Of a stretch of 64,000 bases of DNA, positions 22,629-26,987 are shown piece by piece; positions within the stretch are counted from its first letter, which is position 1; every line of letters starts with the position of its first letter. The position numbers and the translations under genes were made by a program. Source of the stretch: Escherichia coli (GTDB lineage Bacteria; Pseudomonadota; Gammaproteobacteria; Enterobacterales; Enterobacteriaceae); NCBI RefSeq assembly GCF_051903065.1, contig NZ_CP178438.1. One strand, 5' to 3'. The notes beneath the pieces were generated by a model that did not search any database, was not told the origin of the DNA, and saw only the letters and a program-made list of their open reading frames with translations.

Positions 22629-22749
22629 AGCAAACTCCAGATAAGTGCTTTTTTATGATTACGCCACATCATAAAAAGAATAAAAAATATCGATTTATGT
22701 CGAGTCTATGCAAAAATGATATGGATTACCGGATTGCGAGAGAGCGCTC

Positions 22750-23685
22750 ATGGCCGCCGTTAACTTACGTCATATTGAAATTTTTCATGCGGTAATGACC
22801 GCCGGAAGCCTGACTGAGGCAGCACACCTGCTACACACCTCACAGCCAACCGTCAGCCGCGAACTGGCGCGCTTTGAGAAGGTGATCGGGCTGAAATTGT
22901 TTGAGCGCGTACGTGGACGATTACATCCTACCGTGCAAGGACTGCGTCTGTTTGAAGAAGTGCAACGATCCTGGTACGGACTGGATCGCATTGTCAGCGC
23001 CGCAGAAAGTCTGCGCGAGTTTCGCCAGGGAGAACTGTCTATTGCCTGCCTGCCGGTCTTTTCGCAATCTTTTTTACCGCAGCTCCTGCAACCCTTTCTG
23101 GCACGTTATCCCGATGTCAGCTTAAATATCGTGCCCCAGGAATCACCGCTACTTGAAGAGTGGCTTTCGGCCCAGCGTCATGATTTAGGACTCACTGAGA
23201 CACTCCATACGCCTGCGGGAACAGAACGTACCGAATTACTCTCTTTAGATGAAGTGTGTGTGTTACCTCCGGGCCATCCACTGGCGGTAAAAAAGGTATT
23301 AACGCCGGATGATTTTCAGGGTGAGAACTACATCAGCCTTTCCCGTACTGACAGCTATCGCCAGTTGCTGGATCAGCTATTTACTGAACATCAGGTTAAA
23401 CGACGCATGATCGTAGAAACCCACAGCGCCGCGTCAGTCTGCGCAATGGTACGGGCGGGGGTAGGTGTTTCGGTGGTTAACCCGCTCACCGCACTGGATT
23501 ATGCGGCAAGCGGTTTAGTGGTGCGGCGGTTCAGTATTGCGGTTCCGTTCACCGTCAGCCTGATCCGCCCCCTGCACCGCCCGTCATCAGCGCTGGTGCA
23601 GGCGTTTAGTGAGCATTTACAAGCGGGTTTACCGAAACTGGTCACTTCTCTTGACGCTATTTTGTCGTCAGCTACGACAGCATAA
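22750..23685 (+). CDS. lysR: LysR transcriptional activator of lysA
   Basis: 311-aa LTTR with N-terminal HTH, divergent from lysA. Confidence 0.95.
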
Positions 23686-24492: not shown

Positions 24493-25911
24493 TCAGACGC
24501 CGATATTTCTCAACTTCTCGCCTGCCATCAGTTTGCGTTCGATATGTTCCAGGGTGACATTTTTGGTTTCCGGAATGAGCCAGAAAGTGATGCCCACAAA
24601 CGCAATGTTCAGCGCAGTGTAGAGCCAGAACGTACCGGCAGCGCCAATGCTGTCGAGCAGCGTCAGGAAGGTCGCGCCGATAATCATATTCGACACCCAG
24701 TTCGTGGTGGTCGAACAGGTAATACCGAAATCGCGGCATTTCAGCGGCTGAATTTCAGAGCACAGGATCCACACCACTGGCGCGGCGCTCATCGCATAAC
24801 CGGCAATACACATCATCGTCATGCCAACAGAGAGCCAGGACAAGCCACTGGAAGCCGTACCGTTATCAAACTGCATCAGGCAATAGCCCAGCACCAGAGT
24901 GCCTAACGCCATCACGCTGAAACCAATTTTCAGAGCCGGTTTACGACCTGCTTTATCTACCGTAAAGACCGCAATGAAGGTCGCGAACATAAAGGTCAGT
25001 CCCACGACCAGAGTCGCAATCATCTGTTGTTCTGTGGTCGTAAAGCCCGCCATTTTGAAGATACGCGGCGCGTAGTACATGATGATGTTCATACCGGTAA
25101 ACTGCTGCATCGCCTGCAACAACATACCGAGAAACACAGCACGACGGACGTTACGGTTGATCTTAAACAGTGCCCAACCGCCCTGTTTTAACTTCAGGCT
25201 TTCACGAATTTCGTTGAGTTCTTCTCGCGCTTTTTCCGACGTATCGCGCAGCATACGCAATACTTCTTCCGCCTCAATATGACGCCCCTTTTCCGCTAGC
25301 CAGCGCGGGCTATTTGGCAGGAAGACCACCAGAATAATCAGCAGGACTGCTGGTAAAGCAAGAACCCCCAACATTGCGCGCCAGTTACCGCTATAACTGA
25401 ACGCTGTATCGGATAAAAACGCCAGCACAATGCCGAGTGTGACCATCAACTGGTACATACTGATCATCTTACCGCGAACGTTTTCACTTGCCATTTCAGA
25501 AAGATACAGAGGAGCGGTGTAAGAGGCGATCCCGACAGCAATGCCCAGCACCACACGAGCGGCGATTAACATCTCTACGCTGGTCGCAAAAGCGGACCCT
25601 ATCGAGCCGAGCACAAACAGGATGGCCCCCGCCATCAGGCTGTATTTACGCCCCAGGCGGAACGACAGCCAACCATTAAACAGCGCACCAATTGCTGCGC
25701 CGAGCATCATGCTACTAACCACCCATTCCTGCAAACGACTGGTCAGCACAAAGTGATCGGTAATGAACGGCAACGCTCCGGCGATTACGCCGATATCAAG
25801 ACCAAATAACAATCCTGCGACCGCAGCAGCTACCGAAACAAACATATTCATACGCCGCGTATCCCGCAAAGAACGTGGCGTTAAAGCAGATTCCGTATTG
25901 ATAGTAACCAT
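24493..25911 (-). CDS. araE: Arabinose:H+ symporter (MFS)
   Basis: Internal start [30 protein letters not shown] gives 472 aa. Confidence 0.95.
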
Positions 25912-26177
25912 TTTTTCCTGCCAGCAGAGAGTAAGACATAGTGAAAAAATACGTGAACAACTCACACAGGTGTCAGGTCGGAAACAGCATAAATATGGAT
26001 TAAATTGCTGCGACATGTCGTTATGTGATGGATATTCCAATTTTCAAATTAAGTTGAATTATTGAGATTATTATTAACCACCTAATTTTACAGCAGATAA
26101 AATTCATAAAGTTCATTAATTGATAATTGATATGGATTATTTCATAACCATGATATGGATTATGATGATCTACAGAT

Positions 26178-26206
26178 ATAAAAAACCCTGCCATGCGGCA
26201 GGGTCA
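26178..26206 (-). terminator. Rho-independent terminator downstream of kduD
   Basis: Hairpin accctgcc-gcat-ggcagggt followed by a U-run on the minus strand. Confidence 0.6.
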
Positions 26207-26225: not shown

Positions 26226-26987
26226 TTAACGCGCCAGCCAACCGCCATCCACGGCAATGGTATAACCATTCACATAATCTGAAGCGCTGGAGGCAAGGAA
26301 CACTACCGGCCCCATCAGGTCACTCGGCAGTCCCCAACGGCCAGCTGGAATGCGGTCGAGGATTTCCGCGCTACGTTGTTCATCTGCCCGTAGTTGTTGA
26401 GTATTGTTGGTCGCCATGTAACCCGGGGCTATCGCATTAACATTAATGTTGTGTTTAGCCCATTCGTTCGCCATCAATCGCGTCACGCCCATAACACCGC
26501 TTTTTGATGCGGTATAAGAAGGCACACGGATCCCGCCCTGGAAGGAGAGCATTGACGCGATATTGATAATCTTGCCGCCATTGCCTTGCGCGATAAAGTG
26601 TTTCGCCGCTGCCTGAGACATGAAGAATACGCTCTTGATATTCAGGTTCATGACATCGTCCCAGTCTTTTTCGCTGAACTCGAGAGCATCTTCGCGGCGA
26701 ATCAATCCGGCGTTATTCACCAGGATATCAATATGACCAAACTCAGCTACCGCGCGATCCAGCAGTGCTGGAATGCCATCAATCTTTCGCAGATCGGCGG
26801 TCAGGCTTAAAAAACGACGCCCCAGCACCGTGACCTGCTTGATGGTTTCAGTCGGTTCAACGATGTTAATGCCAACAATGTCACAGCCCGCTTGCGCCAG
26901 CCCCAACGCCATCCCCTGGCCCAGTCCAGTATCACAACCAGTGACGACCGCAACTTTACCTTCGAGAGAAAATGCACTTAAAATCAT
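26226..26987 (-). CDS. kduD: 2-dehydro-3-deoxy-D-gluconate 5-dehydrogenase (SDR)
   Basis: 253-aa SDR ORF with TGCDTGLG Rossmann motif. Confidence 0.95.
   Translation of the reverse strand: MILSAFSLEGKVAVVTGCDTGLGQGMALGLAQAGCDIVGINIVEPTETIKQVTVLGRRFLSLTADLRKIDGIPALLDRAVAEFGHIDILVNNAGLIRREDALEFSEKDWDDVMNLNIKSVFFMSQAAAKHFIAQGNGGKIINIASMLSFQGGIRVPSYTASKSGVMGVTRLMANEWAKHNINVNAIAPGYMATNNTQQLRADEQRSAEILDRIPAGRWGLPSDLMGPVVFLASSASDYVNGYTIAVDGGWLAR

What the first reader, a model, noticed from the sequence alone, without database searches (positions are those of the whole stretch)
26100..26175. Direct repeats ATATGGATTAT upstream of araE resemble AraC half-sites
The araE upstream region contains gatatggattatttcataaccatgatatggattatgatg, two direct repeats spaced about 21 bp apart. 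This is the geometry expected for AraC binding at an araI-like site (the AraC half-site core contains TATGGATAA-like sequence).
Basis: partly seen in the sequence, partly recalled or inferred. Interest (0 to 1): 0.25.

Follow-up and report, generated by a model that had tools for sequence, protein, structure and literature searches.

The report
Conserved distal AraC-type boxes upstream of araE
The repeat is real and is kept across most enterobacterial genera, but it is not the arabinose activation site of araE; it most likely is a pair of distal, araO2-like AraC contact points about 140-160 bp upstream of the true site, suggesting araE is also controlled by DNA looping.

Summary
The window is E. 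coli. The repeat lies in the 314-bp gap between the kduD terminator and araE, both on the minus strand.

**Observation.** TGATATGGATTAT occurs twice, at 26128-26140 and 26151-26163. The period is 23 bp, not 21. Read in the araE direction each copy is ATAATCCATATCA and carries TCCATA, the AraC "B-box", in the same orientation as araI1.

**The canonical site is elsewhere.** The regulatory module sits next to the promoter:
- CRP site, 26021-26042
- I1, 25994-26010
- I2, 25973-25989, overlapping the -35 hexamer

The repeats lie 137 and 160 bp upstream of I1, so they are not the araI-like site.

**They are not chance.**
- A TCCATA pair exactly 23 bp apart sits at this position in 57 of 70 anchored Enterobacteriaceae araE loci.
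- Only the ~7-bp cores are conserved; flanks and inter-box spacer are not.
- No TAGC A-box is conserved.
- Distance to I1 is 137-139 bp or 127-129 bp, about one helical turn apart.

**Calibration.** araO2, checked in 8 araC-araB loci, shows the same signature: conserved TCCATAT core, same orientation as I1, and a fixed 211-212 bp distance.

**Best reading.** Auxiliary O2-like AraC half-sites, probably looping to I1. Binding is untested here, and I could not access the primary mapping papers.

The parts
26151..26163 (-). Distal box. The 13-mer is ATAATCCATATCA on the araE strand, with core TCCATA at 26159-26154. The 17-bp half-site frame 26170-26154 reads GATCATCATAATCCATA.
   Evidence: Exact repeat. 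Coordinates verified. The TCCATAT core is conserved in 55 of 55 unique orthologous sequences, with non-conserved flanks. It lies 160 bp upstream of the I1 TCCATA.
26128..26140 (-). Proximal box. The 13-mer is ATAATCCATATCA, with core TCCATA at 26136-26131. The 17-bp frame 26147-26131 reads TTATGAAATAATCCATA.
   Evidence: The ATCCATA core is conserved and preceded by an A-rich run. It lies 23 bp from the distal box in all 57 loci that have the pair, and 137 bp upstream of the I1 TCCATA.
26175..26205 (-). kduD intrinsic terminator (GACCCTGCCGCATGGCAGGGTT plus T-tract), immediately upstream of the distal box.
   Evidence: Terminator scan. The hairpin and T-tract are conserved across genera and stay attached to the boxes even where extra DNA follows kduD, as in Salmonella arizonae L003.
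26075..26087 (-). Tentative IHF-like element AATTAGGTGGTTA (relaxed WAT[CT]AR-N4-TTR), roughly midway between the distal box and I1.
   Evidence: The relaxed motif sits at the same position, -88 from the I1 T, in 26 of 57 loci (-87 in one more). The strict WATCAR form is there in 8. In E. coli it is only a relaxed match. This is inference only.
26021..26042 (-). CRP site AATTGGAATATCCATCACATAA. The right half TCACA is conserved; the left half is TGGAA, or TGTAA in most genera.
   Evidence: Read from the sequence. It is among the most conserved blocks of the intergenic region.
25994..26010 (-). Canonical araE I1 half-site CAGCAATTTAATCCATA, matching TAGC-N7-TCCATA at 9 of 10 positions.
   Evidence: Both AGC and TCCATA are conserved in all anchored loci.
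25973..25989 (-). Canonical araE I2 half-site TGCTGTTTCCGACCTGA, 21 bp after I1. Its ACCTGA end matches araBAD I2 and overlaps the -35 hexamer.
   Evidence: CCTGA is conserved. For araBAD I2, TAGCGGATCCTACCTGA.
25946..25976 (-). Inferred araE core promoter: -35 CTGACA (25976-25971) and -10 TATTTT (25951-25946). The transcription start is inferred near 25941.
   Evidence: Sequence reading. CTGACA and GTAnnTT are conserved. The start site itself was not verified.
25909..25911 (-). araE start codon.
   Evidence: Translation gives [11 protein letters not shown]..., 472 aa. RefSeq annotation of identical DNA names araE and kduD.

Best explanation
The two repeats are a conserved pair of distal, araO2-like AraC half-sites serving the araE promoter. 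Each has a perfect B-box (TCCATA followed by T) but no TAGC A-box.

Proposed mechanism:
1. Without arabinose, one DNA-binding domain of an AraC dimer sits on I1 (25994-26010). The other reaches back to one of the distal boxes, 137 or 160 bp upstream.
2. This forms a short loop across the AT-rich spacer and the CRP site. It keeps AraC off I2 and keeps basal araE expression low.
3. With arabinose, the dimer shifts to I1-I2, touches the -35 region and, with CRP, activates transcription.

Shown here: the sequence anatomy, orientation, spacing and deep conservation, and the parallel with araO2.

Inferred: AraC occupancy of the boxes, the loop, and its repressive effect.
For: 1. Each box is TCCATA plus T, in the same orientation as I1. 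O2, araE-I1 and both boxes share TCCATAT.

2. Match to TAGC-N7-TCCATA is 8/10 (distal) and 7/10 (proximal). That is the same as or better than araBAD O2 (7/10) and, as I read them in the K-12 sequence, I2 (7/10), O1R (7/10) and O1L (8/10).

3. In the 140 bp upstream of the CRP site, TCCATA is the most widespread 6-mer. It is present in 62 of 70 loci and twice in 50 of 70.

4. The pair occurs with exactly 23-bp spacing in 57 loci. These span Escherichia, Salmonella, Citrobacter, Klebsiella, Raoultella, Kluyvera, Enterobacter, Kosakonia, Lelliottia, Leclercia, Siccibacter, Pseudescherichia and Phytobacter.

5. Only the cores are conserved, at about 2 bits per position. This matches I1 and the CRP half-site, while flanks and the inter-box spacer are near 0 bits.

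6. The distance from the proximal box to I1 is 137-139 bp or 127-129 bp, a difference of 8-12 bp or roughly one helical turn. Intermediate values appear only in single outliers (132 bp in MAG L061; 130 bp in one E. coli strain).

7. In 8 araC-araB loci (two are E. coli or near-identical), the proven looping operator O2 shows the same signature. Its TTGTCCATAT core is conserved, it has the same orientation as I1, and it sits a fixed 211-212 bp away across poorly conserved DNA. In many genera the distal araE box reads TTGTCCATAT, identical to the O2 core.

8. The boxes are present in 5423 of 5426 complete E. coli genomes. The common polymorphism lies just outside the core.

9. Published mechanism: apo-AraC prefers well-separated half-sites (O2 and I1), and arabinose shifts it to adjacent I1-I2 (PMC2241862; PMC11983282).
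Against: - No AraC binding data for this position were available to me. From memory, the classical footprints (Stoner & Schleif 1983) report one AraC site at araE, next to the promoter.
- The A-box is missing and not conserved. Only an A at position -10 is enriched, in 45 of 55 distal and 33 of 52 proximal sequences. Intrinsic affinity should therefore be low.
- O2 conserves more of its 17 bp (GAAACCAATTGTCCATAT) than these boxes do.
- There are two boxes with an invariant 23-bp spacing, whereas every established AraC dimer site uses 21 bp. A pure O2 analogy does not explain why the pair and its spacing are conserved.
- Helical phasing with I1 is near-integral only at 10.5 bp per turn (137/10.5 = 13.0). 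It is not integral at the 11.1 bp per turn I recall for ara loops in vivo.
- TCCATA alone is not specific: there are 45 copies in the 64-kb window.
Confidence: 0.55

Rival explanations
1. The pair is a second full AraC dimer site. One dimer would bind both boxes side by side, as at the upstream araFGH sites. It would act without looping, for example by raising local AraC concentration, speeding induction, or cooperating with the I1-I2 dimer.
For: - There are two boxes in direct repeat with strictly invariant spacing. This implies both are read together in a fixed geometry.
- AraC tolerates altered half-site arrangements in vitro: direct, inverted, or with 11 bp added (PMC2241862).
Against: - The spacing is 23 bp, never 21 bp, in 57 loci. 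Established direct-repeat sites have a 4-bp gap, which is 21 bp (PMC11983282).
- Both A-boxes are missing.
- The bimodal distance to I1, differing by about one turn, points to face-of-helix communication with the promoter-proximal site.
Confidence: 0.2
2. The boxes are bound by a different, unidentified regulator that recognises ATCCATAT direct repeats 23 bp apart. AraC is not involved.
For: - The non-canonical 23-bp spacing and the absence of the A-box.
- No experimental link to AraC.
Against: - The conserved core is exactly the AraC B-box with the same 3' T as O2 and araE-I1, in the same orientation as I1, upstream of an AraC-dependent promoter.
- It resembles a DnaA box (TTATCCACA), but the invariant T in TCCATA replaces the C of that box.
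- No promoter or RNA family signal was found.
Confidence: 0.15
3. One reading: the repeats are the araI-like AraC activation site of araE.
For: TCCATA cores in direct repeat, about two helical turns apart.
Against: - A complete CRP-I1-I2/-35 module, with 21-bp spacing and both A- and B-boxes, lies 137 bp downstream and is conserved.
- The repeats lie about 190-220 bp upstream of the inferred transcription start. That is too far to contact RNA polymerase as araI2 does.
Confidence: 0.03
4. Chance repeat or neutral local duplication with no function.
For: - The region is AT-rich (32% GC).
- The 13-bp identity of the two copies is specific to Escherichia. Other genera share only the ~7-bp core.
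Against: - Shuffle tests: 2 of 5000 and 6 of 5000.
- The cores and their spacing are conserved across more than 15 genera, while surrounding DNA is unalignable.
Confidence: 0.02

Closest known systems
araO2, the distal operator half-site of araBAD/araC in E. coli
   Same: - Perfect TCCATAT B-box with a poor A-box (GAAA for O2; GATC and TTAT here).
- Same orientation as I1.
- Lies more than 100 bp upstream of I1.
- Core and distance to I1 are conserved across genera while the intervening DNA diverges.
   Different: - O2 is single; araE has two boxes, 23 bp apart.
- O2 is 211 bp from I1; here the distances are 137 and 160 bp (127-129 and 150-152 bp in some genera).
- O2 conserves about 18 bp; these boxes conserve about 7 bp.
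- O2 lies in the araC leader and also helps control pC; no divergent gene exists here.
- Looping and repression are proven for O2 and untested here.
araI (I1-I2) of araBAD, and the canonical I1-I2 of araE
   Same: TCCATA core, direct-repeat arrangement, and orientation toward the regulated gene.
   Different: - araI half-sites are 21 bp apart, carry the TAGC A-box, and I2 overlaps the -35 hexamer.
- The repeats are 23 bp apart, lack A-boxes, and lie about 190-220 bp upstream of the inferred start.
Auxiliary operators of other looping systems (lac O2/O3; gal OE/OI with HU)
   Same: Weak distal sites that act only through cooperativity with a promoter-proximal site. Possibly an architectural bend site lies between them (IHF-like motif).
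   Different: The proteins and symmetry differ. The bend-site idea here rests on a relaxed motif present in only about half of the loci.

Membership tests
AraC 17-bp half-site (TAGC-N7-TCCATA) | B-box TCCATA | tested here: met
   Both boxes are 6/6. They are conserved in 57 loci.
AraC 17-bp half-site (TAGC-N7-TCCATA) | A-box TAGC located 7 bp upstream of the B-box | tested here: not met
   E. coli has GATC (2/4) and TTAT (1/4). Across genera only the A at -10 is enriched; there is no conserved AGC. The same weakness is seen in the bona fide O2 (GAAA, 1/4).
araI-type activating dimer site | Two direct-repeat half-sites 21 bp apart (4-bp gap) | tested here: not met
   The spacing is 23 bp in the window and in all 57 loci with the pair. 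I1-I2 and O1L-O1R are 21 bp apart (PMC11983282).
araI-type activating dimer site | Promoter-proximal half-site overlaps the -35 hexamer | tested here: not met
   The boxes lie 137 and 160 bp upstream of I1. The real I2 (25973-25989) overlaps CTGACA.
araO2-type distal looping half-site | Isolated strong B-box with a weak A-box, in the same orientation as I1, more than 100 bp upstream | tested here: met
   The exception is that there are two boxes rather than one.
araO2-type distal looping half-site | Distance to I1 conserved, or changed by whole helical turns, while intervening DNA diverges | tested here: met
   araE: 137-139 bp or 127-129 bp. O2: 211-212 bp in 8 araC-araB loci. The number of independent indel events is small (about 2-3), so the phasing argument is suggestive only.
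araO2-type distal looping half-site | AraC occupancy dependent on I1, and repression of the promoter without arabinose | not testable with these tools
   Needs footprinting or ChIP-exo and reporter genetics.

The most novel reading that the evidence does not exclude
araE carries a previously unannotated double distal operator: two O2-like AraC boxes locked at 23 bp. It is conserved throughout core Enterobacteriaceae and forms a short 137-160 bp AraC loop with I1, perhaps helped by a mid-loop bend site. That would make araE a second looping-controlled promoter of the ara regulon. Its two-box geometry differs from araBAD and could allow alternative loops or a dimer-of-dimers bridge to I1-I2.
Probability: 0.35. 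Interest if true: 0.55.

Novelty: new member of a known kind. Interest (0 to 1): 0.42.

Why it matters
AraC and araBAD are the textbook case of regulation by DNA looping. As far as I recall, the other ara promoters are drawn without distal operators.

A deeply conserved O2-like pair at araE would mean the transporter gene is also held off by a loop. Transporter expression sets the all-or-none induction behaviour of arabinose systems.

The invariant 23-bp two-box geometry and the short loop length would give new constraints on how apo-AraC positions its DNA-binding domains.

It is also directly testable with a few promoter mutants. It matters to people who engineer araE or pBAD expression hosts, because replacing or truncating the native araE upstream region removes these boxes.

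Tried and rejected
1. **Literature.** Eight full-text searches and several direct look-ups were run. The look-ups covered Stringer 2014, Schleif 2010, Gallegos 1997, Johnson & Schleif 1995, Lee & Schleif 1989 and Carra & Schleif 1993. None gave access to mapped AraC sites at araE. Searching the library for the repeat or I1 sequence strings found nothing relevant. Whether the boxes have been described before therefore remains unverified.

2. **A second promoter or small RNA at the repeats.** The sigma-70 scan found no more sites than in shuffles, and Rfam found nothing meaningful.

3. **A dispersed repeat family.** Other near-copies of the 13-mer in the window (1379, 22717, 31764, 27041) are mostly inside ORFs with unrelated flanks. 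They are treated as chance.

4. **Boxes tied to kduD rather than araE.** In Salmonella arizonae extra DNA separates kduD from the terminator, yet the terminator-box-promoter block stays intact.

5. **Strict helical-phase test.** Distances are compatible with integral turns at 10.5 bp per turn but not at 11.1 bp per turn. This is left as inconclusive.

6. **IHF bend site.** It is only a relaxed match in E. coli and is absent in the Klebsiella, Raoultella and Kluyvera class. It is kept as a side note, not as part of the claim.

Full report
**Context.** The window is E. coli. The 361 bp around the finding match 5423 of 5426 complete E. coli genomes at 95-100% identity, and RefSeq annotates araE and kduD on either side. 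araE is on the minus strand, with its ATG at 25911-25909 and a 472-aa product. kduD, also on the minus strand, ends at 26226. It is followed by an intrinsic terminator at 26205-26184 plus a T-tract. The finding lies in the 314-bp kduD-araE intergenic region, which is 32% GC.

**Observation.** The quoted sequence is there.
- The exact repeat is 13 bp, TGATATGGATTAT, at 26128-26140 and 26151-26163. The period is 23 bp, not about 21.
- Read on the araE strand each copy is ATAATCCATATCA.
- A third copy of the 10-mer TAATCCATAT lies at 26002-25993.
- In 5000 dinucleotide-preserving shuffles of the intergenic region, an exact close repeat of 13 bp or more arose twice. Three TCCATA on one strand arose six times.
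- Other near-copies of the 13-mer in the window (1379, 22717, 31764, 27041) have unrelated flanks, and most are inside ORFs. I treat them as chance.

**Where the canonical araE control region is.** Reading the minus strand, the elements are:

| Element | Window coordinates | Sequence |
|---|---|---|
| CRP site | 26042-26021 | AATTGGAATATCCATCACATAA |
| I1 | 26010-25994 | CAGCAATTTAATCCATA (9/10 to TAGC-N7-TCCATA) |
| I2 | 25989-25973 | TGCTGTTTCCGACCTGA, 21 bp after I1 |
| -35 | 25976-25971 | CTGACA, overlapped by I2 |
| -10 (likely) | 25951-25946 | TATTTT |

- This is the same arrangement as araBAD, which I read from E. coli K-12. There I1 is TAGCATTTTTATCCATA, I2 (TAGCGGATCCTACCTGA) is 21 bp downstream, and O2 (GAAACCAATTGTCCATA) is 211 bp upstream in the same orientation.
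- All these araE elements are strongly conserved in orthologous loci.
Their TCCATA cores lie 137 and 160 bp upstream of the I1 TCCATA. That is roughly -190 to -218 relative to a transcription start inferred near 25941 (the start site is an inference).
- From memory, Stoner & Schleif (J Mol Biol 1983) footprinted AraC and CRP next to the promoter. I could not retrieve that paper.

**Phylogenetic footprint.** A scan of one genome per species with AraE returned 80 loci.
- *Position.* In 64 loci with a clear start codon, TCCATA occurs near -248 and -225 from the ATG, as well as at I1, across most genera.
- *Pair and spacing.* Anchoring on the CRP/I1 module, 57 of 70 anchored araE loci carry a pair of [T/G]CCAT[A/G] boxes exactly 23 bp apart at this position.
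- *Distance to I1.* The proximal box is 137-139 bp from I1 in Escherichia, Salmonella, Citrobacter, Enterobacter, Kosakonia, Lelliottia, Leclercia, Siccibacter, Pseudescherichia and others. It is 127-129 bp away in Klebsiella, Raoultella, Kluyvera and Phytobacter.
- *More distant genera.* Buttiauxella, Cedecea and Rosenbergiella have a single box at -147 to -154. Erwinia, Mixta and Pluralibacter have none.
- *Anchor-independent check.* A MAFFT alignment shows the two ~7-bp cores as islands of at least 90% identity in otherwise unalignable DNA.
- *Information content.* It is about 2 bits at the cores and near 0 in the flanks and the inter-box spacer.
- *Unbiased k-mer count.* In the 140 bp upstream of the CRP site, TCCATA is the most widespread 6-mer (62 of 70 loci; twice in 50 of 70). 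It ranks ahead of the terminator T-tract.
- *A-box.* No TAGC A-box is conserved. Only an A at -10 is enriched, in 45 of 55 distal and 33 of 52 proximal sequences.

**Within E. coli.**
- The 50-bp box region is found in 5423 of 5426 genomes, and 3581 copies are identical.
- The common variant is a C-to-T change just 3' of the proximal core.
- Three rare variants are informative:
  - A 7-bp deletion after the proximal box in O113:H21 FWSEC0010, which leaves TCCATA intact.
  - An IS5 insertion between the boxes and the CRP site in strain EC6.
  - A 26-bp box spacing in strain P276M.

**Calibration with a proven distal operator.** I retrieved araC-araB intergenic regions through AraC homologues. 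They come from Klebsiella, Enterobacter, Cronobacter, Buttiauxella, a Dryocola/Cedecea genome and two ~90%-identity AraC relatives, one of which is E. coli or near-identical. E. coli K-12 was added.
- In all 8, the O2 core (GAAAC[C/A]A[A/T]TTGTCCATAT) is conserved, in the same orientation as I1.
- It is 211-212 bp from I1 in every case, although much of the DNA between is not conserved.
- The araE boxes show the same three signatures.
- In many genera the distal box reads TTGTCCATAT, identical to the O2 core.
- Scored against TAGC-N7-TCCATA, the araE boxes reach 8/10 and 7/10. O2 reaches 7/10, and I2 (7/10), O1L (8/10) and O1R (7/10) are in the same range. The O1 half-sites are as I read them from the sequence.

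**Mechanism.**
- *Published work.* Apo-AraC prefers two well-separated half-sites (O2 and I1) and so loops the DNA. [quoted passage not shown] Activating half-sites are direct repeats separated by 4 bp, and O2-I1 are about 210 bp apart (PMC11983282).
- *Best-supported reading.* The araE boxes are O2-like auxiliary half-sites. Apo-AraC bound at I1 captures one of them, giving a short loop that keeps AraC off I2.
- *Face-of-helix constraint.* Natural length changes between the boxes and I1 are 8-12 bp, about one helical turn. That fits such a constraint. However, only about 2-3 independent events are involved, and the phase is integral only at 10.5 bp per turn.
- *What the O2 analogy does not explain.* It does not explain why there are two boxes or why their 23-bp spacing is invariant. 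This keeps open a second-dimer model or a non-AraC factor.
- *Excluded.* No promoter or RNA-family signal explains the boxes.

**Known or new.** I found no description of distal AraC boxes at araE in the accessible library. This covers eight text searches, including sequence-string searches. The key primary papers and the AraC ChIP study were not held. I therefore rate it as a probable new member of a known kind, a second O2-type operator in the ara regulon, with the caveat that prior description cannot be excluded.

**Verdict.**
- The feature is functional by conservation.
- The mechanism is inferred, not shown.

Noticed in passing
window 26075-26087 (minus strand): A relaxed IHF-like motif (WAT[CT]AR-N4-TTR; E. 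coli AATTAGGTGGTTA) sits at -88 from the I1 TCCATA in 26 of 57 araE loci with the box pair (-87 in one more). The strict WATCAR form is at that position in 8 loci: six Citrobacter, Kosakonia arachidis and Leclercia. It is absent in Klebsiella, Raoultella and Kluyvera. It lies about midway between the distal box and I1 and could be a bend site.
   Followed up: partly
L085 (E. coli EC6, NZ_CP182398.1), locus ~606-1006: An IS5-family element is inserted in the araE upstream region, between the CRP site and the distal boxes. This natural variant separates the boxes from the promoter.
   Followed up: partly
L082 (O113:H21 FWSEC0010) and L096 (strain P276M): Two rare E. coli length variants were seen. 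One is a 7-bp deletion of one TATCAAT tandem copy right after the proximal box, giving a 130-bp distance to I1. The other is a divergent inter-box spacer that makes the box spacing 26 bp instead of 23 bp. The TCCATA cores are intact in both.
   Followed up: partly
window 22717-22729 (+): A near-copy of the 13-mer (TGATATGGATTAC) lies about 20 bp upstream of the lysR start codon (ORF 22750-23685), in the lysA-lysR control region. It is probably chance, but it was not examined.
   Followed up: no
window 26167-26170: In E. coli the A-box position of the distal half-site frame reads GATC, a Dam methylation site. It is not conserved in other genera; Salmonella, for example, has CATT.
   Followed up: no
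L003 (Salmonella enterica subsp. arizonae) ~2031-2210: About 180 bp of extra DNA with REP-like palindromes (gcctgatgacgcc...atcaggcc) lies between the kduD stop and the terminator. The terminator-box-promoter block downstream is unchanged.
   Followed up: no
window 24493-26040 (minus strand): The mechanical ORF list extends araE to a TTG at 26040 (515 aa), running through the promoter, I1-I2 and the CRP site. The real start is the ATG at 25911, matching the RefSeq AraE of 472 aa.
   Followed up: yes
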